64,000 nt of DNA from Bacteroidota bacterium (GCA_027487835.1 JAIYCU010000028.1:22930-86929), one strand, 5' to 3'; shown: positions 19,897-49,189, counted from the stretch's first letter. Numbers and translations are program-made. The notes: generated by a model from the letters alone, not told the origin.

Positions 19897-19983
19897 TCGT
19901 TTGATAGTTGTTTATAAGTAGCTTATCCTATACAAACATATCAATTTTTACCATTCAAAAAACACCCCTAAATCTATACTAAT

Positions 19984-20654: not shown

Positions 20655-20760
20655 TATTGTTTACCAAACAAACTTACCTAATCCTTTTCAATCAAAAAAT
20701 ACAACTTATTTAAAAGCCATGGCAGGTTATGTTAAATTAAAAATTAAGGTATGTTTGGCG
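20655..20760 (-). promoter_or_regulatory. conserved promoter-bearing intergenic element, copy A (core reads GGTATTTTTTGATTGAAAAGGATTAGGTAAGTTTG on the minus strand)
   Basis: Shares the acccaatccttttcaatcaaaaaatac core and the gccatggcaggtt block with copies at 26.4, 28.4, 31.9, 41.3 and 46.45 kb. Contains a Bacteroidetes -7 TAnnTTTG box, 60-140 nt upstream of a minus-strand start. Confidence 0.6.
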
Positions 20761-20791
20761 GCCACCAGGAAACGATGACTGTAGTGTTCAG

Positions 20792-25388: not shown

Positions 25389-25513
25389 TTTGTTAATTTT
25401 TCGAATCGCCTCTTTTTTAAAGCGATGCTTATTTCATCCATTTTTTAAAAATTGTTTTAAAAAACAAGATTAAATCAACTATCAATAAAAAAAAATACCT
25501 ACTTCTAGGTATT

Positions 25514-26293
25514 TTATAGGCAATTTTCATTTATAACTTTTGCTACCAAATCAATGGGGTTTTTGCAATTTGCTTTTATTAAAATGTTTTTTCGATGCGT
25601 ATTAACTGTATGAAGGCTTATGCTAAGTTCTTTGGCTATATATTTACTGTTTTTACCCTCTACTATGTATTTCAATATTTCTTTTTCTCTTTTTGTAAAA
25701 ATATCAACCGACTTAGTTAAATTTTGTGTAGTTTCAATATTGTAATATGAGGGTTCGTTGTCAAATCCTATAATAGAAAAACTAGGTTTTCCTTCTTTTT
25801 TTATATGTGTAATATCGGTATGTAGTACAAGATTTACATAATAATTACTTTCATCAAATTCTATAGGTAATATTTGATGAAGCAAACGGATATAACCATT
25901 ATTTTTGGTTTTAATTCTATAATCATGCTGGGATTTATAACAACCTCTTTTTGCTAAAGCCAAACTGTTAAAAAACTCTACTGTGTAGGTTTCATAGCTT
26001 AGAAAATAGGGTTTGTCCTCAGGATGTATCTGATCTAAAAAAAACAATGCATTTATTTCGCTAGGCTCATAACCCAATACATTTAAAACATTTGGACTTA
26101 CATGTTCGATTTCCATTTGTCGAAAATTAAAAAACATATTGTAATGTTTGCCTATATGAGAAAAATCCAATATTTTTTTATTGAGTTCAAATGATAATTC
26201 TATATTTTTTGTATTGGAAATATTTTCTGATGTAATAACGTTTTCCCAAACTTTTGAGGCAGACTGATATAATGACGTTTTTGATTTATCCAT
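25514..26293 (-). CDS. LuxR/GerE-family transcriptional regulator with N-terminal PAS-like domain
   Basis: C-terminal LuxR HTH (EKEILKYIVEGKNSKYIAKELSISLHTVNTHRKNI). Confidence 0.75.
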   Translation of the reverse strand: MDKSKTSLYQSASKVWENVITSENISNTKNIELSFELNKKILDFSHIGKHYNMFFNFRQMEIEHVSPNVLNVLGYEPSEINALFFLDQIHPEDKPYFLSYETYTVEFFNSLALAKRGCYKSQHDYRIKTKNNGYIRLLHQILPIEFDESNYYVNLVLHTDITHIKKEGKPSFSIIGFDNEPSYYNIETTQNLTKSVDIFTKREKEILKYIVEGKNSKYIAKELSISLHTVNTHRKNILIKANCKNPIDLVAKVINENCL

Positions 26294-26387
26294 AACGATT
26301 TGTATGATAACAAGGGGTAGAAAAAGATTTGTGTTTTGGACAAAAGATATTTCGAGTAGTCGTCGTTTAAAATTATCACCACCGATT

Positions 26388-26465
26388 TAACTCCCGCAAC
26401 TTAATCTCAATAATTAAACATTTTTGAAAGCGATTTCAGGTTCAGCTAAATTAAAACTTTAAGGC
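26388..26465 (-). promoter_or_regulatory. conserved intergenic element, copy B (short variant)
   Basis: Shares gcaacttaatctcaataattaaac and the ...tcaggtt...aaattaaaacttt blocks with copy C. Lacks the acccaatcc core. Confidence 0.45.
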
Positions 26466-26556
26466 TTTGAATCAAGTCATCTCGAAACGCTAACTATTGT
26501 GCGGAGGATGTTTATTACCCTTATATTATTGCACAATTTAATTACACTATTGTATC

Positions 26557-28367: not shown

Positions 28368-28490
28368 ACCTGCAACTTCATTTCGATAATTAAACCAACA
28401 TACCCAATGCTTTCCAACCAAAAAATACCTTGAAGAAATATGACATTATTAAAAGCCATTGCAAGTTCTGTTACATTAAAACTTACTTAA
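28368..28490 (-). promoter_or_regulatory. conserved promoter-bearing intergenic element, copy C
   Basis: cctgcaacttcatttcgataattaaac...acatacccaatgc...caaaaaatacc...gccattgcaagttctgtt. Upstream of the 26557..28239(-) start. Confidence 0.6.
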
Positions 28491-31844: not shown

Positions 31845-31930
31845 TTTAATCCCAGCAACTTCCTCTTTTATCTACAAACAAACATACCCAATCCTTTTCA
31901 TTCAAAAAATACCTGTAAGTGGATATGGTT
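31845..31930 (-). promoter_or_regulatory. conserved promoter-bearing intergenic element, copy D
   Basis: cccagcaacttcctctttt...caaacatacccaatccttttcattcaaaaaatacc, 50-130 nt upstream of the hydrolase start. Confidence 0.6.
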
Positions 31931-32394
31931 TCCTTTTCAAAATTTTGCTTTATTGATAGACTTACCTCTTTTGCTCTGATTACTTTTTTGCATGGCCAAA
32001 AAAGTAACCAAAAAAGCATCCCAGCCGCACCCTACCGTTCCGGTTTGTATGATTTGTTTTCATTCAAATATTATAATACCTAATTGTGGGTATAAGAAAA
32101 ATGCCGAGAAGAATAGCGTTTGAAACAAGTAAACCTAGATTTCAATTTAATACGCGCGTTCCATCTCTTGTATCACCCCATAAAAAAATGGCGCAATTAG
32201 CTTTTCATTTTGCCGACTTAGGCAGGTGCCTTTGGCTTTGGTAAAAACCTAAGCGAATAAGCACGCCAAAATTGCGTTTAGGTTAAGGCAACCTTTTTTG
32301 AAAGTTCAGCAATTGGTTTGCATTTAGTTTATTCTAAATCAAAAGGAACTTATTTTTCACAAAGTCATTTGGTACATTTTTTACTTTCAACATT

Positions 32395-35541: not shown

Positions 35542-36726
35542 TTAAAATCTTGAAAACAGGGCTCTTAGAAAACATATAAAAGTATTATTAGTTAGTGATA
35601 AAATAAAAAGTCCAATAGCAAACACTGGAGTCAACCAAACTAAGAAACGAATAATGTTTAAATAGCTTTTTTGCTTACTGTGTAGATTATTAATTTTGGT
35701 AAATGTTGTTGTGAAATCATCACCAAGAATTCCAATTTTCTTATCATCAACAGAGTTTTCAAATCTATCAATATCATCTTTCACAAAGTCTATTGCAGAA
35801 AATTGATTACGCAGAAGAACTTCAAGTAAAACACTAAAAACAAATGCACTTAAAACCAAGGCGAAATTGAAATAGATTTTTTCGCCAGTAAGGTCAAATT
35901 GTCCAATTATTAATAAAAAAGCTGCTGGTATTGCCACAAGTTTTGTTTGTGCATCATTAATTACTGCTTGGATTTTTTTGCTGTATTCAATTATCTCCTT
36001 GTCAATTTCTGATTTAAATTTTTGATAAGAATACTTTTCTAAATATAAACTGTGGCTTTTATGGTAATTTAATGTAAGGTCTGAGAAGTTGGTAACCAAA
36101 AAATTGAATCTGTTTTTAGGTTCAATTATTTTTGATAGTGAAGCTATCAATTCATTTGTAAAAATAATTCGTCTCTCCTCCCTATCTGCTGAATCTTGAA
36201 TATGGCTAATTAAACTGTCTAGTTCTTTTATTTCAATTAAATCTTTGGCTGAATAATCCGTAGTTAGTATTAATTGCTTTGCTTGAAAAAAAACAATTTC
36301 ATTGCCCTTTTGATAATCTGAAATACTTCTTAAAAAAGAAATAAGTTTTGTAAATGCTGTATAATTTTGGATTTGAACTGGTTGAACTTGTTGGGTTGAA
36401 ACGTAATTCAGTGAGTTTACAAAGTATTTATTTTGAATATTAGATTGAGATGAGAAATTTATTAAATCTTCGAATGATTCAAAATACTTTTCATCTCCAA
36501 GTTGGTTGGAATATAGTCTTACTTTAATTCTATCGTTAATTGCAATTTGGTCAACTAGTTTATTTCGATTTAGAACAATTACAAAATTCTCAATGCAATT
36601 TGCGGCTGACAAACTTTTTAGTTTTTCTATTTCATCAAGATTAGGCACAAAAAAGCCGACTATTTCATTTCCTGAAATAGTAACTTCTTCAAGTCTTTGT
36701 CTTATCTGAATAAAATCGTTAAGCAT
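35542..36726 (-). CDS. hypothetical protein with C-terminal 3-TM region (candidate membrane effector; partner of the NdpA-like gene)
   Basis: 394 aa. The soluble N-terminal ~270 aa is charged and helical. TM helices are LVAIPAAFLLIIGQF, FALVLSAFVFSVLLEVLL and FLVWLTPVFAIGLFILSL. A 3-nt gap separates it from the upstream gene. Confidence 0.6.
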   Translation of the reverse strand: MLNDFIQIRQRLEEVTISGNEIVGFFVPNLDEIEKLKSLSAANCIENFVIVLNRNKLVDQIAINDRIKVRLYSNQLGDEKYFESFEDLINFSSQSNIQNKYFVNSLNYVSTQQVQPVQIQNYTAFTKLISFLRSISDYQKGNEIVFFQAKQLILTTDYSAKDLIEIKELDSLISHIQDSADREERRIIFTNELIASLSKIIEPKNRFNFLVTNFSDLTLNYHKSHSLYLEKYSYQKFKSEIDKEIIEYSKKIQAVINDAQTKLVAIPAAFLLIIGQFDLTGEKIYFNFALVLSAFVFSVLLEVLLRNQFSAIDFVKDDIDRFENSVDDKKIGILGDDFTTTFTKINNLHSKQKSYLNIIRFLVWLTPVFAIGLFILSLTNNTFICFLRALFSRF

Positions 36727-37736: not shown

Positions 37737-38081
37737 TTACAATTCCCCTTTAAAAGCCTTGTCCAATAAACTTGGAATTAGTTTGGTTAATTCCTGTTCG
37801 GTTTGTTTGTGATGTTCTTTAACTGCATTTGTTTTATTGAGTAGTTCAACAAATTCTCTTTGCAATTCAATTGAAGGAACTGGAACTAATATTTTCATCA
37901 ACTTGTCTAAGCCCAATGTTTTGTTTCTTCCTATCACAATAATTTTTCCGTCAGTGAAAGTCCGCTGTTCAAGTATTAAATCGTCTGACCATTGGCTATC
38001 ATACAGCTTGGGCAACACTTCCTTTCGGCAAGTGTCCGCTTCGCTATCGTGATTGTCAATATGTATAGTTTTATCACTCAT
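37737..38081 (-). pseudogene. chimeric relic ORF: HsdR N-terminal domain fused to HsdS C-terminal conserved tail (type I R-M remnant)
   Basis: N-terminal SEADTCRKEVLPKLYDSQWSDDLILEQRTFTDGKIIVIGR matches HsdR_N (SEAxTRxxLIDPxLxxxGW...). C-terminal PVPSIELQREFVELLNKT...LIPSLLDKAFKGEL is the canonical HsdS C-terminus. Confidence 0.55.
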
Positions 38082-38145: not shown

Positions 38146-41100
38146 TTAAGTTGGTTGTTCATCCTCTATATTAATTTTTAGTACTATTGCAAATTGAGCA
38201 AAACTTGATGATAGGTTAGTTTTAGTTATGTTCCTATTTTTGTGATTTCTGAATTCATCTTCAACTTCTGCTGGTTCAAAATGTTCACCTAAGATAGTGG
38301 CTAAATAAATTGAAGTTAATTTGTCAAAATCATTAGTTGGCTTTTGGAAATTCAAATTAATTGTAGTTTTTAGTTTGTGAATTTTTGAGATTTCACTCTT
38401 TGGTATAGATGGAATCAAAATCTTACTCAAAGCCCATGAAGTAACTCGTTGCAAATTATAATCACCCGATTTAATCCATAATTTTGTCAAGTATATAACA
38501 TATTGTATCCTTAAACTATCTGGGAAAATATTTACTTCTCCTGACCAAGCAACACTCCAGCATATTGAGAAATGACAATGGGCATCATTTGTTTTGAGTA
38601 AGTCATACATAATTTTGAATATTTCCTCTGAAACTGAAATTTCTGAAATTCCTATTTCAAGTGGTCGAAATGATAAACCATACGCAAAGTTCATCATGCC
38701 TAATGCTGCTATACATTTATTTTCATTCGTTTCGCTTTTTAATGATAAAAGAATTTCATTTGGAATTGAAGATATATTTTCTGAATTCGCCAAGTCAGTA
38801 TAGAAAATGTCTGCTAAAGTTGACCCTAATGGGGACGAATATTTATCATCATATTTTCCAAAAAAACATTCTTTAACTCTTTTTCTAAATGCATTTCCAA
38901 ATTTATTTTTAAGAATAATATCTGTGTTTCCTCTTCCAAGGATTGTATAGATGTTTTTCGCATACCATTCAATTGCAGTGCCTAATAAGTCTGGACTAAT
39001 TTGAATTTCATTTGCAAGGCAGCTACCTAAAAGGGAGGGCGCAAGTTTATCTTCCTTTAGTTGTTCCTTTTTTTCTTTAGTGGCAATAATTTTTGATTCA
39101 GAAATTAAATATTCAATTAAGTCTTTTGTATCCCTTTCTAAAAGAACAGCAGCCAATGGTATTACCTCTTTCCAATTTTCATTATTTACATTTGGCTTAA
39201 TAATATCCACAACTTTACTTTCAATATCTGATAATGGAATAAACTTTTTTACTATCGCTTTCGCTGTCAAATACTCTTGGAAACTTAAATGCAAAAATTC
39301 ATATACCGCAGTTATGTTACCTGAATCAAGTTGTTTATGACCTGTCATTATTAGTAAGCTGCTTCTTGATTCAACCCTTTTTATAAATTCAGTGGGATTA
39401 ACATTTGTATAGCCTAAAATTTCTGGCATTTGTTTACGTGCATCAATGAGACAACCATTAAGTTCTTCTGAAGTAATCGTTTGTTGACCATTTTTAGTCA
39501 TCCAATATGCTACAAAAGCAAGTTGGGGTTCTGCTTCTTCAATGTCAAGAATTTCATGTCCTTCAACATTCCATGTCACTAAGAGAAGCTTAATCATTTC
39601 TTGATATAAAACACTTCTTTTAGTTGGAAGATACCCTGCCCATCTTTTAACAAAAAGTAGAGTAGTTAAGAGAAGTGGATTCTCGGCTAATACTACTATT
39701 CTATTGTCCTTTATAATTAAATCACTTAGCTTATTTGCTTCTTTAATTGTGTTTTCTGAGTCGTCTATAATTGCTTTGTGCCATTTTAAACACAGCTCTT
39801 CAATTTCCTCACCAATCAAATTTGAAACTGTATAGTTCTCACAATAAGTTGCTAATGAACCAGCTACAACTCTAAATCCCGCCTCTCGTGATGTTACTAT
39901 AATATTAATTGTAGGGTATGTTGCAATAAAGGTTCTCAGTTGGTTTACAAAGGCAATTCTATTCTTGTCTTCTGCAATTTCATCCAATCCGTCAATTAGT
40001 AACAACGCATTACCATTTTGCAATGACTTTGAAACTAAAATTGAAAAATCATCAGCGCAAGAATGAATTTCTGCTCTAGCAGGTATTCCGTTAATAATAT
40101 CAGTAATACTTAAAGTAACATTGTCCCCAAGTTCTCTACACCTTAAAAAAATTGGAAACCAATCTTTGTCAGGAAGTTTGTCATTTATTTGTATACGCCT
40201 TTCAGGGAAAGCATATGCAATTGCTATACGCTTAATAAGAGTTGATTTTCCGCCACCTGGCTTTGCAAGTATTGCAAGTTTTGATTTCTTTTCTAGGATT
40301 TCACCTATACCTTCTCTCGGTTTATCATCAAAATCAAATTCATCATTTATCCTTATTTGCAGTTTTTTACTCAAATGAAGAGGGACAAAAATATTTTCCA
40401 GCTTTACTTTAACCGAACCAGCTTCTTTATCAGTAGGTAATCCTTCAAATTGGATTTCACCTAATTCATTTTCTAAATACTTGAAATATTTTTCGCCTGT
40501 CTCTTTTAAGTTTCGTTTGGCTACTTTGGTTGTTTCCTCTTTGTTTAATAGGGTTAGTCCATCAAATAAATTTTTAATGTTATTGTCTATTAAAATTATC
40601 TCTTCTGCTAAATCTTTAATAAGAGGCTTTCCTTCCGCATGAACTAAAGCAACATGAGATGGTTTTTGTCCGTGCGAATCTGAATAATAAATTGCCCAAA
40701 CCCAACCTTTATCGTAAGCCAATAAATCGGCATAATCAAGCATATATAGCCCTGATATTAAATTAGATGAAGATGAAATTGCCTTCTCTATTGAGACTAA
40801 AACTCTTCCACGAATCAACTCCTCTACAATTTTTTCTGGCTTAATTAAAATTACTCTTTTATTGTCGGCTTCATTTTCTTGTTCAATTGCAGTTTCCTTA
40901 AAACCTGAAAGAGATATAAAATATCCTACAATGCTAATGCCTTTTGCCCCTTTTTCTTTTTTGCTTTTTCTTTTTTCGACATCAATAGCACCAACAAATT
41001 TGTTTATGTCCGCGCCACCTATTTTTTCTGAGTGAGCTTTACACTCAGCAATAGCTATTTTTTGTTCCGTTCTGTGATTTGAACTCAAATCTAATTCTCT

Positions 41101-41232
41101 GCCTGATTTGTGAATATTAAGCCTTGGTTCATCATATCCCAAAGTATGGAAAAGGTCAGACATCAATCGTCCAAAAAGATCACCTTTTTTGTTTGAATCA
41201 ATTTCTAAAATTTCAATGTTTCTAAGTTTCAT
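38146..41232 (-). CDS. NLR-like antiphage STAND protein: N-terminal Mrr-like PD-(D/E)xK nuclease, central NACHT NTPase, C-terminal helical-repeat sensor (bNACHT/Avs-like)
   Basis: N-terminal ELDL...AIAECK PD-(D/E)xK motif. Walker A AKPGGGKSTL. NACHT Walker B LLLIDGLDEI. NACHT-specific IIVTSRE. About 500-aa helical repeat C-terminus. Confidence 0.8.
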   Translation of the reverse strand: MKLRNIEILEIDSNKKGDLFGRLMSDLFHTLGYDEPRLNIHKSGRELDLSSNHRTEQKIAIAECKAHSEKIGGADINKFVGAIDVEKRKSKKEKGAKGISIVGYFISLSGFKETAIEQENEADNKRVILIKPEKIVEELIRGRVLVSIEKAISSSSNLISGLYMLDYADLLAYDKGWVWAIYYSDSHGQKPSHVALVHAEGKPLIKDLAEEIILIDNNIKNLFDGLTLLNKEETTKVAKRNLKETGEKYFKYLENELGEIQFEGLPTDKEAGSVKVKLENIFVPLHLSKKLQIRINDEFDFDDKPREGIGEILEKKSKLAILAKPGGGKSTLIKRIAIAYAFPERRIQINDKLPDKDWFPIFLRCRELGDNVTLSITDIINGIPARAEIHSCADDFSILVSKSLQNGNALLLIDGLDEIAEDKNRIAFVNQLRTFIATYPTINIIVTSREAGFRVVAGSLATYCENYTVSNLIGEEIEELCLKWHKAIIDDSENTIKEANKLSDLIIKDNRIVVLAENPLLLTTLLFVKRWAGYLPTKRSVLYQEMIKLLLVTWNVEGHEILDIEEAEPQLAFVAYWMTKNGQQTITSEELNGCLIDARKQMPEILGYTNVNPTEFIKRVESRSSLLIMTGHKQLDSGNITAVYEFLHLSFQEYLTAKAIVKKFIPLSDIESKVVDIIKPNVNNENWKEVIPLAAVLLERDTKDLIEYLISESKIIATKEKKEQLKEDKLAPSLLGSCLANEIQISPDLLGTAIEWYAKNIYTILGRGNTDIILKNKFGNAFRKRVKECFFGKYDDKYSSPLGSTLADIFYTDLANSENISSIPNEILLSLKSETNENKCIAALGMMNFAYGLSFRPLEIGISEISVSEEIFKIMYDLLKTNDAHCHFSICWSVAWSGEVNIFPDSLRIQYVIYLTKLWIKSGDYNLQRVTSWALSKILIPSIPKSEISKIHKLKTTINLNFQKPTNDFDKLTSIYLATILGEHFEPAEVEDEFRNHKNRNITKTNLSSSFAQFAIVLKINIEDEQPT

Positions 41233-41261: not shown

Positions 41262-41490
41262 AAGCTGTAATGCCGCAAATTTGTTTTCCATCAACTAATT
41301 TAATACATGCAACTCCAACTTATTTAACAAACTTACCCAATCCTTTACAAACAAAAAATACCCAAAAGTGGGTATATGAAAATATTCTAAATGAATAATG
41401 ACACATTGCACATAAAGTATTAATAACTTAAAACGAAAGATTCAATACACATTTCTACAAACCATTGCAGGTTCCGTTCAACTAGAATTT
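41262..41490 (-). promoter_or_regulatory. conserved promoter-bearing intergenic element, copy E, containing perfect palindrome ATACCCAAAAGTGGGTAT (41358..41375)
   Basis: gcaactccaacttatttaacaaacttacccaatcctttacaaacaaaaaatacccaaaagtgggtat...aaccattgcaggttccgtt, upstream of the NACHT gene start. Confidence 0.65.
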
Positions 41491-41586
41491 ATCTCATTAT
41501 GTTAATTGTTTCTATTGGCATTCGATGGTTTTCAATCCATGGCTTGGCTTGGGGTCAAAATGAAATGCTTGCTGTTGTAGGCAGTG

Positions 41587-42063
41587 TTAAAGAGAAAACA
41601 CCAAAGGAATTACAATTGAAAAAATAAAAAGAATGTAATAAAATATATTTTCCCAAATTTTAAATAGAGAAATTAAAAAGTAGCTTATTTTATATTTACG
41701 TCTCATGTTTGGCTTAACTATTGTAATAAGGGGTCCATGTAAACTTAAAATATCTTTTTCATTAGATTTTATTAAATATTTCTCGAATAATTCGATTGTT
41801 TCTTGTAAATAAATATATCCAGTTAAAATTATTATGTGGAGAGTAAAAAATGTTATCACAATGCTTAATAGTAAAAGCTGAATTTGATTTAATTCAAAGC
41901 CTTTAGTTATTGAAAATCCAAAAGCCGAATTCCATAAAATTACAAACCAATACTTTAAATTTGTTAAATACTCGTATCTTTTTGTTCTAAGTTCAATAGT
42001 ATTGTTGAAATTTAAAAGCAGAAAGTCTCTTTTAAATTTTATATCTTCTGGCTTAAAGGACAT
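41587..42063 (-). CDS. small polytopic membrane protein (hypothetical)
   Basis: 158 aa with 3-4 predicted TM helices. Sits between the NACHT and RloC-like genes. Confidence 0.5.
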   Translation of the reverse strand: MSFKPEDIKFKRDFLLLNFNNTIELRTKRYEYLTNLKYWFVILWNSAFGFSITKGFELNQIQLLLLSIVITFFTLHIIILTGYIYLQETIELFEKYLIKSNEKDILSLHGPLITIVKPNMRRKYKISYFLISLFKIWENIFYYILFIFSIVIPLVFSL

Positions 42064-42440
42064 ACTTTGTTTTTTGCTTTAAAATTTGGGTATATAGAAT
42101 AACATTGTCATAATTTCAGAGTGTGAAAAACCTCATCAAACTTTTTAGTGTAAAAATATCAAAAAATGAATGATTAGGCAAGTATCTTGGTAGTTAAATT
42201 TGCATCAGCAAAACAATTATGGATAACATCAAAGTTAGTAATATCGATCAGATGGAGCTTTGTTGTAATTCTGGAGATACCTTTACACTTCTTCCATTTT
42301 TTTGTTTCTGGATAGACTCATATTTCACTCCAAAGCTTTTTACAAAGCCTATTAAAGTTTTGCCAGTTTGTTGGTTTTCTTAATGATTTTGAAATTTCCA
42401 TTATTAAATGCGAGGTGTCCCTAAAGGTTATAGCTTAACA

Positions 42441-42556
42441 ATTCGGAGGTTTGCGATGGCGGGGATTATTAGCACTAAACTTCATTCGGAGAACTGAATT
42501 TCCACCTTGCACAAAAGTGTCTGCGATGCACGGAACCCCGCCTATTGCAAATGTGC
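42441..42556. other. GC-rich structured element E2: 15-bp long-range stem (tttgcgatGGCGGGG ... CCCCGCCtattgcaa) enclosing about 70 nt, 3' of the RloC-like gene
   Basis: Local GC far above surroundings. Homologous (about 65-70% identity) to element E1 at 45075..45205. Stem base pairs covary with E1 (C:G vs T:A, G:C vs C:G). Shared inner motif GTGTCTGnGAnGCACnGAACC. Confidence 0.6.
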
Positions 42557-42604
42557 TGCTACAAGTTGGGCTTTTGTCTGTCTGAATATATGTTGTTTCA
42601 AATG

Positions 42605-44995
42605 TCATAATTGAACTTCAATTAAGTTAAGAGTGTCTTGTATTAGGTTGTCCAATTCAGGTTCAGTAATAGTATTAGGGTTAATACCTAACATTGTGTA
42701 ATCTGGAGTTGGGTCACCATGATGTGGTTTCCAGGAAACTCCATTAATTAAATGAAGTGTAGATATTATTGTTGTCCTGTTTGCATTGTCCCTAAATACA
42801 ACTGGCAATGTATCTAAAAATGTAATTAATCTTCCAAATGTTTGTATTCCTGTCATAGTTCGAACTTCCTTGTAGAATTTGAACCGTAAATGTGCTTCAA
42901 GAACATTTCTCAACCAACCTAAAACAGTGTCTTTAATTGCATGGTTTGGGTTACTTCTAAAAGCCTCCAATGCTTCAATATGTTTAAAGTATTCAATTTT
43001 TACCAATTCTTCTAAATCACATAGTTCAAGTTTAGATGCTTTGGCTACGAAATCTTCCTTTATACGAAGTGTGCATTTTAAGGTTGCTCCAATGTCTTTG
43101 CCTATTTCATGAAGAAAATATTCATTGTGGCTTAAAACAACCACCTGCTTTAGTTGTTGAAATAATGTTCTAATAATTCCAATTGTATAGGTTCTTCTAT
43201 TAGTATCTAAACTTGATAAAGGGTCATCAAAAATTAAAATTTTATCTTGGCGGTTTGGATCAATGTCAAGTTTGGATAAAAAGAACGCTAAAGCAATTGT
43301 GCTTTTATCTCCCTCGCTCAAACATTCCTTGGCATTAAATGGTTGATTTGGGACAAATGATATGTCCTTGCCGTCTATTGTCAATTTGTAAGCGATTTTG
43401 CTTTGTGTTGCTCTTCCTGCTGGAGCAACATGAACAACATCCTCTATTCTAAAAAGTGTCTTGAAAACATTGCCCAAATAATGGTTGATACGTGTCTGGT
43501 AGCTATTGAAAAAAGTTGCTGCTGTGGTTTGCTGTTGTTGCGATAAAGCTGTGTATGCTGTTTCTAAACCTCTAAGTGTTTGTTTCTCGGCAGACAATTG
43601 AGTGCAAAGCGTAACAATGGGAGTTTCATATCTCTTTTTAATTCTTTTTAGTCTATCAACCGCAAGCTGTGCATTTGCAGCAGTCTGAATACCTGCACGA
43701 AAAGTTGTAATTGCAGCATTGTAAGTTGTAATGCTTTGATTGTAGCTTTCAATGTTTGTGTTAATGGTCTGTCCAGAAGACAGAAAAACAGTAGCGGTGG
43801 CGGTAGCCACCGCTACTGTAGGATTTTGTATTTTTTGTTGGAGTGAATCAATTAACCTTTGAAACTCTGCTCTTAAAACAGTTTCGTCCGCAATGATGTT
43901 AAAAATTGGTGGATGAACTGTATTTGGCAAGTGCGTAGCCCATAACGTTACTCTCCCTGTATTTGTCTGATTGATATTGTTTATCGCTTGTATGGCAGCG
44001 TCCAAATTGAAGTTTTGAAGCGAAGTCAAATGTGATTGTAGTCGTAGAACTAAAGCGTTAAAGTCAGCATTAAATTTAGTGATATAGGCGTTTAGAATTT
44101 CAACATTGCCATCAATAGTCTGCATACAAAATGGACAAGAAATTGTGGGTTCATTTGCTGCTTGTTTTCTCTCCACATATGCAAATCCTCTTTGCAGCCA
44201 ATTTTCAGGTCCGTCAAGTCCGTTGTCTGTCAAGTCTTGACAATGATTTGAAAACAAAGTTTCCAAAGCTGCATTTTGAATTGCTTGTGATGTTGTCTGT
44301 AAGTCTGTGATAAGAGAAGTGAAATCAATACCCGATATTATTCGGGTGAGAGCAGTAAGTTGTTGTAATGTTTGAATTATTGTGTTTGCATTCGCACTCG
44401 CTAATGCAGCCTCCGCCGCTGTAATTTGTTGGTCAATTCCGCTAGATTGTGTTACAGGAATAGCAAGAAATGAAGTAATTAAGTCAGCGGTCAAACTGTT
44501 TCCCACTTGCTGAATTAATTGTTGTTCAATATTTGTTATTGATTGTTTTGATATGACTTTAGCAGCTTTGTTTTGTTCAATTTGATTTTGAATTGCAATT
44601 CCTTGTGCACCGATAACAAATTGATGAAGTTGCTTTTTATGTTCATCATTAAAGTCAAACCCTGAATAGATATTGTCGTTGACAAAATGAATGTCAAAAA
44701 TCTCAATATTATCAAAAGGAGTTGTCCAACCAGCAGCCCTTAAGGTGTGAAATGTATTCGGTGTCCCTGTTTGAGTTATTTGTGCTGCTTGTGCTGCTAT
44801 ATGGTTTGTAGAAATTCTACTTCTAACGATTTCAGGTTTGTTGGTTGTCAAGGAACGAAACACTGAAGTTAGTGTGGTTTTACCACCTCCATTGTTGCCA
44901 TAAATTAAGGTCAGCTTTTGAAAATTAATCTGTCCAGCAGCAGTGTAGTTGCGGAATTTTCCAATGGAAGTAAGTCGTTCAACTTTGTTTATCAT
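42605..44995 (-). CDS. RloC/PrrC-like anticodon-nuclease-type ABC ATPase (AAA_13-like): split ABC head with long coiled-coil insert, CxxC zinc-hook, C-terminal HEPN-like domain
   Basis: Walker A GNNGGGKTT at the N-terminus. About 450-aa Gln/Ala-rich coiled-coil with SCPFC. ABC signature LSEGDKSTIALAFFL, Walker B ILIFDDP, H-loop VLSHN. C-terminal roughly 190 aa carry an Rx5H match to the HEPN Rx4-6H motif (LRNVLEAH). Confidence 0.7.
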   Translation of the reverse strand: MINKVERLTSIGKFRNYTAAGQINFQKLTLIYGNNGGGKTTLTSVFRSLTTNKPEIVRSRISTNHIAAQAAQITQTGTPNTFHTLRAAGWTTPFDNIEIFDIHFVNDNIYSGFDFNDEHKKQLHQFVIGAQGIAIQNQIEQNKAAKVISKQSITNIEQQLIQQVGNSLTADLITSFLAIPVTQSSGIDQQITAAEAALASANANTIIQTLQQLTALTRIISGIDFTSLITDLQTTSQAIQNAALETLFSNHCQDLTDNGLDGPENWLQRGFAYVERKQAANEPTISCPFCMQTIDGNVEILNAYITKFNADFNALVLRLQSHLTSLQNFNLDAAIQAINNINQTNTGRVTLWATHLPNTVHPPIFNIIADETVLRAEFQRLIDSLQQKIQNPTVAVATATATVFLSSGQTINTNIESYNQSITTYNAAITTFRAGIQTAANAQLAVDRLKRIKKRYETPIVTLCTQLSAEKQTLRGLETAYTALSQQQQTTAATFFNSYQTRINHYLGNVFKTLFRIEDVVHVAPAGRATQSKIAYKLTIDGKDISFVPNQPFNAKECLSEGDKSTIALAFFLSKLDIDPNRQDKILIFDDPLSSLDTNRRTYTIGIIRTLFQQLKQVVVLSHNEYFLHEIGKDIGATLKCTLRIKEDFVAKASKLELCDLEELVKIEYFKHIEALEAFRSNPNHAIKDTVLGWLRNVLEAHLRFKFYKEVRTMTGIQTFGRLITFLDTLPVVFRDNANRTTIISTLHLINGVSWKPHHGDPTPDYTMLGINPNTITEPELDNLIQDTLNLIEVQL

Positions 44996-45074
44996 GCTTG
45001 AAAGGTGTTCTTGTCAATTGTTTGTATTATGCAGTCAGCTTCATGTTAGCACGGTCGTCATAGCCTTGCTGGTA

Positions 45075-45205
45075 AAGTTTTCGGGCTTGGCGAAGGTGGC
45101 GATTTTCACCACAAATGTTGATGCGGAGAACCAAACTTTGATTAACCTCAAATGTGTCTGTGAAGCACTGAACCGCCACTTTTGCCAAACCCGTGTTATG
45201 TGCAG
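45075..45205. other. GC-rich structured element E1 (homolog of E2): long-range stem ttggcgaaGGTGGCG ... CGCCACttttgccaa, between the SIR2 and RloC-like genes
   Basis: Direct-orientation homolog of E2. 15-bp stem with two G·T wobbles. Compensatory changes relative to E2. Covers the spurious 62-aa ORF 45027..45215. Confidence 0.6.
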
Positions 45206-45211
45206 TATTTT

Positions 45212-46393
45212 TCACTTTATAAATTCAGATTTTTCAAGATTTGGATAAGTCTCAATGAATTCCTCAAACGTGCCTTTAAAGGTTTCAAGTTGACCAATTT
45301 GCTTTTGGGAGAAAATTTGATTTACTTTTTCCCAATGAGCATCTGATGATGTTGGGTCTACTACTTTGATTATAGGTTTATTTCTATTCCAATTTAAAGC
45401 ATGTTGTAATAAATTTAAAAATGCTAGGTCTGATTGAGGAAATGAATATCCGATTATAATAATTTCTTGTGCTTCAATTAGTGATTTGAATGTTCCATCC
45501 CAAAGTTCTTTAGCTGTAGAATTTTCGTTCTTACCTAAAATTGGGGCAACTAAATCATGTTCAAGTTTTGCTCCACAAATGCCACATTTAAATCGGTCAA
45601 ATAAATTTCTTATTTCTTCTGTACTATGTTTGTCATCGTAATACATTGAGTAACTATTCACAATTTTGTAGTTATGGATAGTCTTACAGTTTGGACATTT
45701 AAACCAATCAAACGACCCATGTAATTTAATCAATTCATGGTGTTTACTGTAAGTCCATTTATATTGTTCATTACGGATTAAATGAGCTCCGTCACTAAAT
45801 GTATAGATTGGTACTATATAATGTGGCACAACATTAAAATTGCTTTCTACGCCAACTACACCCCAGATGTGGTCAAAATATTCGTCATCAAGTTTACAGT
45901 CATAGTTAAATGATATAGTACTTAATACCGGTATGTTATTGTCGTTAATTGTTTTGAACCATAGTCTATCAAAGAAATTTTTGTATAATTCTTTTGAGTT
46001 GTCTAAAAAAATTGTGTTATCAATGAATTTAGAAGTTTTGTTGTCAATGGCAGAAAAGATAATTTTTGTAAGCGTTTTAAATACTTTAGTTAAAGTGTCT
46101 TGGTTCAGAAGATAATTGTCAACATGAATTATAGAATTGTTTCGTATAAAATAATCAAGTTGTCCCAAGAGATTTTCATAATCAATCCACTCTTTTTCCA
46201 AGTCTTTTCCTTGCAATTCCAAAACAATTGATTTTACTATTGTAAATACTTCCTTAAAATGACTTGATTTACATTCCTTGATAAATTCAATTATAGATGT
46301 TGGAAGCTGATTAAGAGTTGGAATTCCATAAGCAAAAGAAGCTCCTGCCCCGAAGACACAAGCTGTTCTCTTTATATTTTTATGGTCTGTCAT
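45212..46393 (-). CDS. SIR2-like (SIR2_2/DSR-type) defense-associated protein with C-terminal Cys-rich zinc-ribbon
   Basis: N-terminal ACVFGAGASFAYGIP matches the SIR2_2 hallmark (hFhGAGhS..GhP). C-terminal CPNCK...CGICG. Defense-island context. Confidence 0.65.
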   Translation of the reverse strand: MTDHKNIKRTACVFGAGASFAYGIPTLNQLPTSIIEFIKECKSSHFKEVFTIVKSIVLELQGKDLEKEWIDYENLLGQLDYFIRNNSIIHVDNYLLNQDTLTKVFKTLTKIIFSAIDNKTSKFIDNTIFLDNSKELYKNFFDRLWFKTINDNNIPVLSTISFNYDCKLDDEYFDHIWGVVGVESNFNVVPHYIVPIYTFSDGAHLIRNEQYKWTYSKHHELIKLHGSFDWFKCPNCKTIHNYKIVNSYSMYYDDKHSTEEIRNLFDRFKCGICGAKLEHDLVAPILGKNENSTAKELWDGTFKSLIEAQEIIIIGYSFPQSDLAFLNLLQHALNWNRNKPIIKVVDPTSSDAHWEKVNQIFSQKQIGQLETFKGTFEEFIETYPNLEKSEFIK

Positions 46394-46417
46394 TTAATAT
46401 TGCAAATAACTTGATTA

Positions 46418-46500
46418 TAAACGCACTAATGCACCCAATATCAAACAAACATACCCAATCCTTTTTAATCAAAAAATACCCAAAAGTGGGTATATTTAAA
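46418..46500 (-). promoter_or_regulatory. conserved promoter-bearing intergenic element, copy F, containing palindrome ATACCCAAAAGTGGGTAT (46476..46493)
   Basis: caaacatacccaatcctttttaatcaaaaaatacccaaaagtgggtat is near-identical to copy E. On the coding strand it carries the TTTTTTG / TATGTTTG (-33/-7-like) boxes just upstream of the SIR2 gene. Confidence 0.65.
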
Positions 46501-46510
46501 ATAGTCTATT

Positions 46511-47002
46511 TTAAGATTCCTTATTTATAATCTCTGAGTAATTGCTGTTAGCAAGAGCTAACTTTTTTGATTTAACTAAATTTTTTAGGTCTTTGAGGGA
46601 ATAGCCAGATGTTTTTTGGAAATGAGGTAAATCCGTAAATTTCCAATCACCTCCCCACTCCCATCCATACCTTTTACAAATGGTTACTACTTCAAACCAA
46701 TCCGCTCTTCCATCTTTATCAAAATCTACATTGGTTTCCCAACTAGCATTATCAAATTTACTATTGCCTTTATTATCAACTAATAAAACGATATCAAATG
46801 CTAATCCGTAATTATGATAACTCTGGACGCTTTTAGCATTTGTAACTTTTTTGCCTGGCTTGGTTCTGCCAATCGCATACAGCTCATCTTGTTCTTTAAA
46901 CGTTCTTAAGGCGTATGAAAATCTACAAATGGCTCTTCCAGGTAAAGCTTGGTAAATTTCACTATACATTTCAATTACTTCTTTTCTAAGCAATGGGTGC
47001 AT
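46511..47002 (-). CDS. peptidase M15 family (L-Ala-D-Glu / D-Ala-D-Ala peptidase, endolysin-like)
   Basis: SVQSYHNYGLAFDIV and DWFEVVTICKRYGWEWGGDW...DLPHFQ match the zinc-binding H/D/H architecture of M15/VanY-like cell-wall peptidases. Confidence 0.75.
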   Translation of the reverse strand: MHPLLRKEVIEMYSEIYQALPGRAICRFSYALRTFKEQDELYAIGRTKPGKKVTNAKSVQSYHNYGLAFDIVLLVDNKGNSKFDNASWETNVDFDKDGRADWFEVVTICKRYGWEWGGDWKFTDLPHFQKTSGYSLKDLKNLVKSKKLALANSNYSEIINKES

Positions 47003-47100
47003 TAATTTAATGCGTTCTAAGGTAATTTTATCCTTAATGGCTGATAATAGGTTTAATGGTTTTACAATTTATATTTTCATTTTTTAGATTTCCAAAAAAT

Positions 47101-47128
47101 AGCACTGCACAAAATTTTGTGCAGTGCT
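47101..47128. promoter_or_regulatory. perfect 28-bp palindrome AGCACTGCACAAAATTTTGTGCAGTGCT flanked by A6/T6 tracts, in divergent intergenic region
   Basis: Exact inverted repeat with no mismatches. Lies between the divergently oriented M15 peptidase start (47002) and the 47184(+) gene. Confidence 0.5.
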
Positions 47129-47183
47129 ATTTTTTGTTTTCAAGAATTTTTGTTAAATAATGTAGGCTTAAATTTTTTAAAAC

Positions 47184-47918: not shown

Positions 47919-48054
47919 TTAGTTCTAACATTTTATTATAGTAGGGATAAGTGGGAAAATAATGGCTTCCTACTTATCCCTTTTTTTGGCACGATCCCAA
48001 AAAGTGTTTTGATAATCTGATAAATGTTTTAACTTCCCCGACAAATATTATGGC

Positions 48055-48285
48055 CTATCCGACAAAGGTTTTGACCTCCCCGTTAAGTGCTTTTGCCTCC
48101 CTGACAAATGTTTTTACTTGCCCGACAAATGTTTTGACCTCCCCGATAAGTGCTTTTGCCTCCCCGACAAATGTTTTTACTCGCCCGATAAATACTTTTG
48201 CCTCCCCGACAAATGTTTTTACTCGCCCGACAAATGTTTTGACCTCCCCGACAAAAGTTTTTGCCTCCCCGTTACTTCTGAAAAC
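48055..48285. repeat. minisatellite: about 11 tandem copies of a 21-bp unit (consensus CCCGACAAATGTTTTGACCTC with TTTTACTCG / TTTGCCTC variants)
   Basis: Direct tandem repeats visible by eye. Both overlapping ORFs (48050..48415+, 48055..48309-) only translate the repeat into heptad-like repeats. Confidence 0.85.
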
Positions 48286-48514
48286 CTTGACTAAGTATCC
48301 AAATTCCAATGCATCAGTAAATCCGTTTTATCTGATAAACATATTTTTCATGCGCCACTTGAATGAGGCCATAAACAATATTTCTATAAAAAAACAAATA
48401 CAAGACCATAATTAATATGACTTAATCCTATAAGTAGGATTTACCTTTATCAATAGGTAGATTTTTCTTTTATAGTATCTCTTAAGTATTTACGATTGTA
48501 TAAAAAATTAAACC

Positions 48515-49189
48515 ATGGTAAATACATTAAAACCAAACGAGAAAAAATACTTGTTGATTCATGCAAAATTTGAATCGCTAAAAACTACTGAAGAAGGATT
48601 ACACAACATTCAATGGGAGTGTTTGTATAAGGGTTTATTGGCAGAAGAAATATTAATTCAATATGAGCAACTTAAAAACAAATACGATATAATTATTATT
48701 GATAGGTATTTACCTGTTATGGATACGCTAAATTTTTTAATTAAATATAGAGAGCTAGATCCCATAACACCAGTACTGGTTATAGCGCATGGATTTAATT
48801 TTGAAGACTACCATCAAATTAAATTAATGTCAAACACTTACTATGGACCAAAAGAAATATCTATGCTAAAACTTAGTCTTCAAAATTTTCATAAAAATGA
48901 AATCTTAGACCTAGAGCACTCCCTTATAAAACATTGGGTAGAATTAACAAACACCTATTCGCTAGTGACTTTTGAGGGGGCAATTGAAAAAATTAAAATA
49001 ACAACTTTCGAACAAAACTTATTGAATTTAATTGGAAAAGGTTTAAGCAATAAAGAATTAGCTAAACAATTAAAGGCGAGTATGTCTCATGTTCATCATA
49101 CAAAAAGCAAACTCACCAAAACATTTGGCCTATCACATAACCGCTTGCTACTTGCCTATGGTGTTATTTATAATTACATTGAAATTTAA
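48515..49189 (+). CDS. LuxR/GerE-family regulator with N-terminal receiver-like domain
   Basis: C-terminal HTH NLIGKGLSNKELAKQLKASMSHVHHTKSKL. N-terminal alpha/beta receiver-like region. Confidence 0.65.
   Translation: MVNTLKPNEKKYLLIHAKFESLKTTEEGLHNIQWECLYKGLLAEEILIQYEQLKNKYDIIIIDRYLPVMDTLNFLIKYRELDPITPVLVIAHGFNFEDYHQIKLMSNTYYGPKEISMLKLSLQNFHKNEILDLEHSLIKHWVELTNTYSLVTFEGAIEKIKITTFEQNLLNLIGKGLSNKELAKQLKASMSHVHHTKSKLTKTFGLSHNRLLLAYGVIYNYIEI

What the first reader, a model, noticed from the sequence alone, without database searches (positions are those of the whole stretch)
41358..46493. Identical perfect palindrome ATACCCAAAAGTGGGTAT upstream of both the NACHT and the SIR2 defense genes
Only copies E (41358..41375) and F (46476..46493) of the conserved element contain this 7-4-7 perfect inverted repeat. 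On the coding strand it sits just upstream of the -33 region, and GGGTAT recurs at the -7 box. That is a classic operator layout. It suggests the two defense genes share a dedicated transcription factor, in the way BrxR/CapH-type repressors control defense islands. Neither regulator gene is obvious in the window.
Basis: seen in the sequence. Interest (0 to 1): 0.6.

Follow-up and report, generated by a model that had tools for sequence, protein, structure and literature searches.

The report
LuxR-type box before two defence genes
The identical 18-base palindrome in front of the NACHT and SIR2 anti-phage genes sits in the same promoter position where a family of PAS-LuxR regulators, one of them encoded in this window, keeps its own conserved box, so the two genes probably share a regulator, although the palindrome also looks like a weak transcription terminator.

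Summary
ATACCCAAAAGTGGGTAT occurs twice, exactly, at 41358-41375 and 46476-46493, upstream of the minus-strand Mrr-NACHT and SIR2 genes.

Read on the coding strand it is a hairpin followed by a T-run, so my first reading was a terminator fused to a repeated promoter module. Comparative data changed that.

- **A third copy.** A perfect 7-4-7 palindrome (ATACCTA-N4-TAGGTAT, 25495-25512) follows the stop codon of a PAS_3-GerE (LuxR-type) regulator gene at 25514-26293.
- **Association with the regulator.** 330 kb of homologous regulator loci hold 21 perfect and 5 one-off copies of ATAsCTA-N4-TAGsTAT. 309 kb of control DNA holds none. The box lies downstream or upstream of the regulator gene.
- **Fixed geometry.** The box usually lies exactly 22 nt from a Bacteroidota -7 box (TAnnTTTG), which centres it at about -43.5.
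- **Protein-DNA covariation.** Box position 4 covaries with the recognition-helix residue that aligns with NarL Val189.
- **Fit of E and F.** They share the geometry and the position-4 type of the window's regulator. They differ at one symmetric position (T:A to C:G).

Best reading (about 0.6): a NarL/LuxR-type, activator-positioned box shared by both defence promoters, perhaps also acting as a terminator. It is not a BrxR/CapH-style operator. Binding is untested.

The parts
46476..46493 (-). Box F. Minus strand ATACCCA-CTTT-TGGGTAT. Read in NarL style as 7-2-7 it is TACCCAC-TT-TTGGGTA. Predicted to span -52 to -35 of the SIR2 promoter. It begins 17 nt after the stop of the M15 peptidase gene.
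46470..46475 (-). TTTTTG directly after box F. It is the T-rich -33 region (TTTG) of the promoter. It would also be the U-tract if the hairpin terminates transcription.
   Evidence: -33/-7 consensus from PMC6847099 and PMC2483708
46446..46453 (-). -7 box TATGTTTG (TAnnTTTG), exactly 22 nt after box F. The predicted transcription start is near 46441/46440. The SIR2 ATG is at 46393.
   Evidence: -7 box at -12 to -5 from PMC9723704 and PMC6847099
45212..46393 (-). SIR2-like defence gene (393 aa)
41358..41375 (-). Box E, identical 18-mer. Predicted to span -52 to -35 of the NACHT promoter. It lies 211 nt after the stop of a 158-aa membrane protein gene.
41328..41335 (-). -7 box TAAGTTTG, exactly 22 nt after box E. 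The predicted start is near 41323/41322. The NACHT ATG is at 41232.
38146..41232 (-). Mrr_cat + NACHT defence gene (1028 aa)
25514..26293 (-). PAS_3 + GerE (LuxR-type HTH) regulator, 259 aa. Its recognition helix is SLHTVN-T-HRKNI. It is the candidate regulator of the boxes.
25495..25512 (-). Consensus box ATACCTA-GAAG-TAGGTAT, 1 nt after the regulator's stop codon. It is followed by T9 and, 22 nt on, by a -7-like TAATCTTG (25465-25472).
32076..32093 (-). Hybrid box C' (minus strand ATACCCA-CAAT-TAGGTAT). One arm is of the E/F type and the other is of the consensus type. No -7 box stands in register.
31909..31926 (-). Decayed box of module copy C (ATATCCA-CTTA-CAGGTAT). Its -7 box TATGTTTG is at 31879-31886, upstream of an alpha/beta hydrolase gene.
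28393..28428 (-). Module copy B. It has the promoter core and only a right half-site (AAGGTAT).
20667..20702 (-). Module copy A. It has the promoter core and no box.

Best explanation
The 18-mer is a NarL/LuxR-type dimer site, two inverted heptamers TACCCAn in 7-2-7 spacing. It is placed at a fixed distance upstream of a Bacteroidota sigma-A promoter: 22 nt before the -7 box TAnnTTTG, so it is centred at about -43.5 and abuts the T-rich -33 region.

The NACHT and SIR2 genes each carry one copy. A dimer of a GerE-HTH regulator would therefore bind both promoters and set their activity together. From this position it would most likely activate, as NarL does at yeaR, although occlusion of the -33 region is also possible.

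The best candidate is the PAS_3-GerE regulator encoded at 25514-26293, or a paralogue elsewhere in the genome. Its PAS domain would make expression depend on an unknown signal.

On the mRNA strand the same sequence is a 7-bp hairpin followed by U's. It may therefore also stop read-through from the upstream gene.

Shown here:
- the sequence and geometry of E and F;
- the association of this kind of box with the regulator family;
- the fixed box-to-promoter spacing;
- the covariation between a helix residue and a box base.

Inferred:
- binding of the regulator to E and F;
- the direction of regulation;
- the transcription start sites.
For: 1. **Box next to the regulator.** A perfect box ATACCTA-N4-TAGGTAT follows the stop of the window's PAS_3-GerE gene. 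The same stem follows the stop in orthologues at 65-70% amino-acid identity and in a 91% nt-identical relative. The loop and the flanks differ.

2. **Enrichment.** In 330 kb around homologues, 21 loci have a perfect ATAsCTA-N4-TAGsTAT and 5 have a one-off copy. 309 kb of unrelated loci have none within one deviation.

3. **Not just a terminator.** The box lies after the stop in close orthologues. In distant homologues it lies upstream of, or divergent from, the regulator (L060, L062, L065, L094, L101, L123). In L065 and L123 the upstream neighbour is divergently oriented, so there is no gene to terminate.

4. **Fixed geometry.** Of 21 non-redundant outside sites, 13 have TTTG exactly in register, at 27-30 nt from the box end. 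Nine have a full TAnnTTTG. Random positions give 1.6% and 0.12%. In L062, L094 and L123 the -7 box is on the side facing away from the regulator. E, F and C show the identical 22-nt spacing.

5. **Covariation.** The helix residue X in HTVN-X-HRKN tracks box position 4/15. X=T goes with C:G in 9 of 10 cases. X=N/A/S goes with G:C in 11 of 11. X=I goes with A:T in the single case (Fisher p = 3e-5). X aligns with NarL Val189, a base-contacting residue (PMC10853779). The window's regulator has T, and E and F are of the C type.

6. **The E/F variant is seen elsewhere.** T6-to-C is the change in 3 of 6 natural one-off boxes (L101, L116, window C'). TACCCAn still fits the NarL heptamer TACYYMT (PMC4886647).

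7. **Precedents.** NarL activates yeaR from a 7-2-7 site centred at -43.5 (PMC10853779). Streptomyces PAS-LuxR regulators bind palindromes in the -35 region (PMC9774167).

8. **Local conservation.** E and F are identical over 26 nt while their flanks differ. The spacer between the -33 and -7 regions has 4 of 5 variable bases changed.

9. **The box is local.** SIR2 homologues elsewhere have no such box, so it belongs to this genome's promoters and not to the gene.
Against: - Positions 6/13 are T/A in all 21 perfect regulator-linked boxes, but C/G in E and F. No full CCA-type box was seen in any other locus.
- By plain similarity to the consensus, a two-deviation site is not rare. Four independent ones occur in the 309 kb control. 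Only the perfect symmetry, the promoter register and the position-4 type make E and F stand out.
- The regulator gene is 16-21 kb from E and F.
- Hairpin plus T-run is also what a terminator looks like. F sits 17 nt after a stop codon, where a relative's M15 gene has an unrelated hairpin plus T-run.
- In close orthologues the helix codons lie only about 100 nt from the box, so linkage could inflate the covariation.
- No binding, transcription start or expression data exist.
- The source genome could not be scanned.
Confidence: 0.6

Rival explanations
1. The palindrome is only an intrinsic terminator. As RNA it folds into a 7-bp stem with a 4-nt loop, followed by a U-tract. It would end the upstream transcript: M15 peptidase for F, and the SIR2/PDC-S06/orf158 unit for E. 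The repeated promoter core then restarts transcription. E and F would be identical because the terminator-promoter module was duplicated.
For: - The consensus scan flags both copies on the minus strand.
- RNA folds of -7.9 and -9.3 kcal/mol have z-scores of -2.5 and -2.7.
- F begins 17 nt after a stop codon.
- Only about 8 of 42 genes in the window have a hairpin plus T-run within 260 nt of the stop, and E, F and 25495 are among them.
- The M15 orthologue in a relative has a different hairpin plus T-run at the same place.
- Copy C, which has strong terminators further upstream, has let the hairpin decay.
- Position 4/15 always stays complementary (C:G, G:C or A:T).
Against: - The T-run is an invariant part of the promoter core in all five copies, including A and B, which have no hairpin. 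It therefore does not need a terminator to explain it.
- The stem is weak, with 3 G:C pairs of 7.
- The related box keeps its sequence down to about 30% regulator identity.
- The related box also occurs in divergent promoter regions where there is nothing to terminate.
- It holds a fixed 22-nt distance to a -7 box on either side.
- It tracks a residue of the recognition helix.
- None of these last four points is expected for a terminator.
Confidence: 0.22
2. It is the operator of a dedicated defence-island repressor of the BrxR/CapH kind (WYL-wHTH or XRE-type), encoded elsewhere in the genome.
For: The same perfect palindrome stands before two defence genes only. Defence systems are often under such repressors (my own knowledge of BrxR and CapH/CapP).
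Against: - No WYL, XRE or similar gene lies beside either gene or anywhere in the 64 kb. The HTH genes found are LysR, AraC, PAS-LuxR and a degenerate REC-GerE protein.
- The box ends at about -35 and does not overlap the -7 box or the predicted start.
- The half-sites match the NarL/LuxR heptamer and the box of the PAS-GerE family.
- Related copies precede non-defence genes.
Confidence: 0.06
3. It is the conserved core of a recombination or duplication junction. E and F would be direct repeats bracketing the 5.1-kb SIR2/PDC-S06/orf158 block, as attL and attR would after a cassette inserts into a promoter module.
For: - E and F are direct repeats that flank exactly that block.
- Identity is confined to 26 nt, with divergent arms.
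- The region downstream of the M15 peptidase gene is a defence-island hotspot, and a relative has a different island there.
Against: - No recombinase or integrase is in the window.
- A 4-nt spacer is short for a tyrosine-recombinase core.
- The attC reading failed. Single-stranded DNA folds of the whole elements are no better than shuffles (z about 0).
- The inverted repeats that would flank an invertible promoter are weak.
- No empty site was found.
Confidence: 0.05

Closest known systems
NarL 7-2-7 site at the E. coli yeaR promoter (NarL/FixJ, LuxR-type HTH)
   Same: - Both have two inverted heptamers separated by 2 bp: TAACCAA-TA-AATGGTA at yeaR and TACCCAA-AA-GTGGGTA here on the plus strand.
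- The heptamer fits TACYYMT.
- Both are centred at -43.5, just upstream of the -35/-33 element.
- Both are read by a GerE-type recognition helix in which the residue aligned with Val189 contacts bases (PMC10853779, PMC4886647).
   Different: - The promoter here is of the Bacteroidota sigma-A(Bfr) type (-33/-7) and not sigma-70.
- The candidate regulator has a PAS domain, not a phospho-receiver domain.
- Binding and activation are not shown.
Streptomyces PAS-LuxR regulators (PimM, PteF) and their 16-bp box CTVGGGAWWTCCCBAG
   Same: The protein has the same domain order, an N-terminal PAS domain and a C-terminal LuxR HTH. The box is palindromic and lies at the -35 region of the target promoters. 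These regulators act as activators (PMC9774167).
   Different: - The box sequence and the polarity of its arms are unrelated.
- The phylum is different.
- The targets there are antibiotic biosynthesis genes.
- The Bacteroidota family has a solved member (PDB 3clo), but I found no described box or function for it.
BrxR / CapH-type regulators of defence islands
   Same: One palindromic site stands in front of defence genes, which implies shared transcriptional control.
   Different: - No adjacent regulator gene is present.
- The box does not overlap the core promoter.
- The half-sites are of the LuxR/NarL type.
- The same kind of box also serves non-defence genes.
Rho-independent (intrinsic) terminators
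   Same: A stem-loop is followed by a T-run on the coding strand, and F lies 17 nt after a stop codon.
   Different: - The stem is weak.
- The T-run belongs to the promoter core.
- The stem sequence is conserved across phylum-level distances.
- It stands in fixed register with a -7 box.
Reused or 'mobile' promoters (similar upstream regions before unrelated genes; PMC3575422)
   Same: A core of about 36 nt (plus flanking blocks in some copies) recurs upstream of five unrelated genes within 27 kb.
   Different: No transposition signature was found. The family was absent from the genome, metagenome and viral collections scanned.

Membership tests
NarL/FixJ-LuxR-type 7-2-7 dimer site | Two inverted heptamers separated by 2 bp | tested here: met
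   Plus strand TACCCAA-AA-GTGGGTA lies inside the perfect 7-4-7 palindrome.
NarL/FixJ-LuxR-type 7-2-7 dimer site | Heptamer fits TACYYMT | tested here: met
   TACCCAA and TACCCAC fit 6 of 7 positions, the last position being the exception. Consensus from PMC4886647.
NarL/FixJ-LuxR-type 7-2-7 dimer site | Placed just upstream of the -35/-33 element (about -43.5) when activating | tested here: met
   The box ends 22 nt before TAnnTTTG, which occupies -12 to -5. This puts the box at -52 to -35 (PMC9723704, PMC6847099, PMC10853779). The start site is predicted, not mapped.
NarL/FixJ-LuxR-type 7-2-7 dimer site | Bound by a GerE-HTH protein dimer | not testable with these tools
   Candidates are the genes at 25514-26293 and, more weakly, 48515-49189.
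Box of the Bacteroidota PAS_3-GerE regulators (defined here) | ATAsCTA-N4-TAGsTAT with complementary position 4/15 | tested here: not met
   E and F are ATACCCA-N4-TGGGTAT. Positions 6/13 are C/G, whereas they are T/A in all 21 perfect boxes. The other 12 arm positions match.
Box of the Bacteroidota PAS_3-GerE regulators (defined here) | -7 box TAnnTTTG exactly 22 nt from the box end | tested here: met
   E has TAAGTTTG and F has TATGTTTG in register. 13 of 21 outside boxes have TTTG in register, against 1.6% of random positions.
Box of the Bacteroidota PAS_3-GerE regulators (defined here) | Position 4 matches the regulator's helix residue (T with C, N/A/S with G, I with A) | tested here: met
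   The window's regulator has T, and E and F have C at position 4.
Box of the Bacteroidota PAS_3-GerE regulators (defined here) | Lies next to the regulator gene | tested here: not met
   E and F lie 15 and 20 kb from the gene. The box at 25495 meets this feature.
Intrinsic terminator | Stem-loop directly followed by a U-tract on the transcribed strand | tested here: met
Intrinsic terminator | Stable, G+C-rich stem | tested here: inconclusive
   The stem has 7 bp with 3 G:C pairs and folds at -7.9 kcal/mol. Clear terminators in the window fold at -24 to -26 kcal/mol.
Intrinsic terminator | RNA 3' ends at the U-tract | not testable with these tools
   No transcript data are available.
BrxR/CapH-type defence regulator and operator | Regulator gene (WYL-wHTH or XRE type) adjacent to the defence genes | tested here: not met
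   Pfam, PADLOC and NCBIfam scans of all neighbouring genes found none.
BrxR/CapH-type defence regulator and operator | Operator overlapping the core promoter or start site | tested here: not met
   The box ends at about -35.
Integron attC site (considered for the blocks that flank the core) | Strongly folding imperfect palindrome with R''/R' boxes, plus an integrase or an array of such sites | tested here: not met
   RYYYAAC- and GTTRRRY-like words are present, but the single-stranded DNA folds are no better than shuffles (z about 0). No integrase is in the window.
Invertible (phase-variable) promoter | Good inverted repeats flanking the promoter, and a nearby invertase | tested here: not met
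   Only one copy has a 12-nt repeat at 83% identity. No recombinase is present, and all copies have the same orientation.

The most novel reading that the evidence does not exclude
A widespread but uncharacterised Bacteroidota PAS-LuxR regulator family has its own 18-bp box, ATAsCTA-N4-TAGsTAT, at -43.5 of sigma-A(Bfr) promoters. Its specificity is set by the residue equivalent to NarL Val189. In this genome a variant of the box places two unrelated anti-phage genes (Mrr-NACHT and SIR2) under that signal-sensing regulator, so that immunity is switched by a PAS-sensed cue and not by a dedicated island repressor.
Probability: 0.35. Interest if true: 0.7.

Novelty: new member of a known kind. Interest (0 to 1): 0.55.

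Why it matters
Little is known about how Bacteroidota regulate anti-phage genes. The known defence regulators (BrxR, CapH) are local repressors.

If the reading holds, it gives a concrete, testable link between a PAS-sensor LuxR regulator and two defence promoters.

Independently of the defence question, it defines a regulator-box pair for a large, uncharacterised regulator family. That pair comes with a fixed promoter geometry and a candidate specificity residue. It could be used to predict regulons across the phylum and to build inducible Bacteroidota promoters.

It also warns that a 'hairpin plus T-run' in Bacteroidota intergenic DNA can be an activator box next to a T-rich -33 region and not a terminator.

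Tried and rejected
1. **Terminator-only reading.** This was my first view. I demoted it.

2. **attC or integron cassette reading of the flanking blocks.** Rejected: there is no significant single-stranded fold and no integrase.

3. **Invertible promoter.** Rejected: the inverted repeats are weak, there is no invertase, and all copies face the same way.

4. **Known RNA family.** No Rfam match at gathering threshold or at E up to 1.

5. **Finding the repeat family elsewhere.**
   - The core pattern gave only chance coding hits in 185,579 species genomes.
   - A looser pattern gave nothing in metagenomes or viral contigs.
   - The source contig could not be retrieved. Only short identical Logan contigs turned up.

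6. **Palindrome travelling with the SIR2 gene.** Homologues at 43-71% identity in other contexts have no box and no core.

7. **Conserved target gene downstream of the regulator's box.** The neighbours are mostly unrelated. They include T9SS cargo, exported proteins, UvrD-like helicases and a histidine kinase.

8. **The module as a recent copy of the 25495 promoter.** The 22-nt spacers share only 9 of 22 bases (read). The shared layout therefore looks functional and not inherited.
Full report
**1. The observation**

ATACCCAAAAGTGGGTAT occurs exactly at 41358-41375 and 46476-46493 and nowhere else in the window. Allowing up to 3 mismatches gives 5 matches where 0.11 are expected (sequence). It is a perfect 7-4-7 inverted repeat.

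All neighbouring genes are on the minus strand. The 18-mers lie upstream of an Mrr_cat+NACHT gene (38146-41232) and a SIR2-like gene (45212-46393). Between them lie a PDC-S06/AAA_13 gene and a 158-aa membrane protein gene.

Both 18-mers form the 5' edge of a repeated core, GTATTTTTTG-N5-AAAGGATTGGGTAWGTTTGTT. The core has five copies, all on the minus strand, upstream of five unrelated genes:

| Copy | Downstream gene |
|---|---|
| A | DUF6252 |
| B | 560-aa protein |
| C | alpha/beta hydrolase |
| E | NACHT |
| F | SIR2 |

The core contains TTTG and, 16 nt later, TAnnTTTG. These are the Bacteroidota -33/-7 promoter elements (PMC6847099, PMC2483708, PMC9723704).

Only E and F have the perfect palindrome. 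C has a decayed one. An imperfect copy (C', 32076-32093) lies 167 nt upstream of C.

**2. First reading: a terminator**

On the coding strand the sequence is ATACCCACTTTTGGGTAT followed by TTTTTG.

- The consensus scan calls both copies terminator-like.
- The RNA hairpin is modest, at -7.9 and -9.3 kcal/mol with z about -2.6.
- F starts 17 nt after the stop of an M15 peptidase gene.
- The orthologous gene in a related genome carries an unrelated hairpin plus T-run at the same place, followed by a different defence island.
- Few genes in the window have such a structure within 260 nt of their stop codon.

This looked like a duplicated terminator-promoter module.

**3. What changed the picture**

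A third perfect 7-4-7 palindrome, ATACCTA-GAAG-TAGGTAT, lies at 25495-25512. It starts 1 nt after the stop of a PAS_3+GerE (LuxR-type HTH) regulator gene at 25514-26293.

Orthologues of this regulator at 65-70% amino-acid identity carry the same stem after their stop codons. The loops differ (TTAG, TTGA) and the flanks are unrelated. A 91% nt-identical relative keeps three things: the box, the T-run, and a -7-like TAATCTTG 22 nt on. Its spacer and the following gene differ.

I then fetched 80 loci that encode homologues and scanned them.

- 21 have a perfect ATAsCTA-N4-TAGsTAT and 5 have a one-off copy.
- 309 kb of unrelated loci have none within one deviation.
- In close orthologues the box follows the stop codon.
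- In distant homologues it lies upstream of the regulator. In L065 and L123 it sits in a divergent promoter region where no gene needs terminating. In L060 it lies after a separate G+C-rich terminator.

**4. Geometry**

The box stands at a fixed distance from a promoter. Of 21 non-redundant boxes outside the window, 13 have TTTG exactly 27-30 nt from the box end. Nine have a full TAnnTTTG at 23-30 nt. Random positions in the same loci give 1.6% and 0.12%. Several others miss by one base.

In L062, L094 and L123 the -7 box lies on the side facing away from the regulator gene.

The -7 box occupies -12 to -5 (PMC9723704, PMC6847099). The box therefore spans -52 to -35 and is centred at -43.5.

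E (TAAGTTTG at 41328-41335), F (TATGTTTG at 46446-46453) and C share exactly this 22-nt spacing.

NarL, a GerE-HTH protein, activates the yeaR promoter from a 7-2-7 site, TAACCAATAAATGGTA, centred at -43.5 (PMC10853779). Read the same way, E and F are TACCCAA-AA-GTGGGTA and the regulator's own box is TACCTAn-NN-nTAGGTA. Both fit the NarL heptamer TACYYMT (PMC4886647) at six of seven positions.

**5. Protein-DNA covariation**

Box position 4/15 varies (C:G, G:C or A:T) but is always symmetric. It tracks one residue, X, of the recognition helix HTVN-X-HRKN (Fisher p = 3e-5).

| Residue X | Box type at position 4/15 | Count |
|---|---|---|
| T | C:G | 9 of 10 (L065 is the exception) |
| N, A or S | G:C | 11 of 11 |
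| I | A:T | 1 case (L051) |

L044 and L046 are 90% identical overall, yet they differ in both X (T versus N) and box type. X aligns with NarL Val189, one of the three base-contacting residues (PMC10853779).

One caveat applies. In close orthologues the helix codons lie about 100 nt from the box, so linkage could contribute. The rule nevertheless holds for 6 of the 7 boxes that lie far from the helix codons (L060, L062, L094, L101, L107, L123; L065 is the exception).

Taken together, sections 3-5 make it very likely that this palindrome family is the cognate box of the PAS_3-GerE regulators. I found no description of this in the literature. A structural-genomics entry exists for a family member (PDB 3clo).

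**6. Do E and F belong?**

For:
- They have the same 7-4-7 form and the same 22-nt register to a perfect -7 box.
- Position 4 is C, as expected for the window's regulator (X = T).
- C' is a hybrid, with one consensus arm and one E/F-type arm.
- T6-to-C is the deviation in 3 of 6 natural one-off boxes (L101, L116, C').
- The spacer between box and -7 box shares only 9 of 22 bases with that of the 25495 promoter. The common layout is therefore not simply inherited.
- E and F are identical over 26 nt while their flanks have diverged.

Against:
- Positions 6/13 are T/A in every perfect regulator-linked box.
- No full CCA-type box was seen elsewhere.
- Two-deviation matches to the consensus are not rare in control DNA.
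- The regulator gene is 15-20 kb away.
- A paralogous regulator cannot be excluded. Nor can the degenerate REC+GerE protein at 48515-49189.

**7. Weighing the explanations**

| Explanation | Confidence |
|---|---|
| Shared LuxR/NarL-type box at -43.5 of both defence promoters, possibly also a weak terminator | about 0.6 |
| Terminator only | about 0.22 |
| Operator of a dedicated BrxR/CapH-like repressor | about 0.06 |
| Recombination scar flanking the 5.1-kb SIR2 block | about 0.05 |

Within the first explanation, I put about 0.4 on the window's own regulator being the binder.

The box type is not restricted to defence genes.

**8. Novelty**

The kind of site is known: a LuxR-family dimer box at about -43.5. 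Three things appear to be new:
- this box for this Bacteroidota regulator family;
- the possible coupling to NACHT and SIR2 defence genes.

Nothing here demonstrates binding or regulation.

Noticed in passing
window 45075-45195 and 42435-42560 (minus strand); L030 15632-15823: A G+C-rich element of about 115 nt with a 20-bp closing stem follows the SIR2 gene. Its RNA fold is -47 kcal/mol with z = -5.6. A weaker copy follows the PDC-S06 gene. A relative's defence island holds a similar 5' half (GTTTGGCAAAAGTGGCG.TTCAG...CAGACAC) between a DUF4365 gene and hsdR. There is no Rfam match. Two Logan contigs break inside the element, at 45171.
   Followed up: partly
window 26340-26480, 20703-20775, 28429-28482, 41383-41500 (minus strand): The promoter core is flanked in copies A, B and E by two further conserved blocks: TTTTAATTTAACAnAACCTGCAATGGCTTTTAAAAATG upstream and GTTGCAGGTGTTAAAT downstream. 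In copy X, upstream of the PAS-LuxR gene itself, both blocks are present but the 49-nt core is precisely absent. Their function is unknown. The attC and invertible-promoter readings were not supported.
   Followed up: partly
window 46511-47002 and L030 10001-20513: The region downstream of the M15 (CwlK-like) peptidase gene is a defence-island hotspot. This genome has SIR2, PDC-S06, Mrr-NACHT, an hsdS fragment (37737-38081), an NA37-like gene and a weak DS1_2-antiphage-like gene (35542-36726). The relative GCA_027487655.1 instead has DUF1508, KTSC, HATPase_c_3, DUF4365 and a type I restriction-modification system.
   Followed up: partly
window 48439-48468 and 48515-49189: A second GerE-like protein (a degenerate receiver domain plus a LuxR HTH, with weak scores) lies 1.5 kb beyond the island. 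About 50 nt upstream of it is a hairpin, ATTTACCT-N8-AGGTAGAT plus T's. It has TACCT/AGGTA arms at a different spacing from the box.
   Followed up: no
window 46446-46453, 41328-41335, 31879-31886, 19930-19937: The -7 boxes here read TATGTTTG or TAAGTTTG, with G at -9. In Flavobacterium johnsoniae, G at -10/-9 is reported to be almost absent (TAHHTTTG; PMC6847099). The sequence just before the -7 box (TTGGGTA, or TTAGGTA in copy A) repeats the right arm of the box and shows the same A/G alternation.
   Followed up: no
window 25473-25494 left flank, and 25513-25542: The 25495 box also has TTTG in register (AACTTTTG) on its other side, pointing back into the regulator gene. This would allow an antisense or bidirectional promoter.
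   Followed up: no
window 47998-48312 and 58184-60049: There is a tandem 21-nt repeat (10 copies) inside a 121-aa ORF. There is also a 261-nt repeat (7 copies, 63-82% identity) inside a large ORF near the end of the window.
   Followed up: no
window 47090-47150: A palindromic intergenic stretch lies between the divergent M15 peptidase gene and the 47184 gene. Logan contig L001 matches 47107-47136 in both orientations. It gives only weak, sub-threshold Rfam hits.
   Followed up: no
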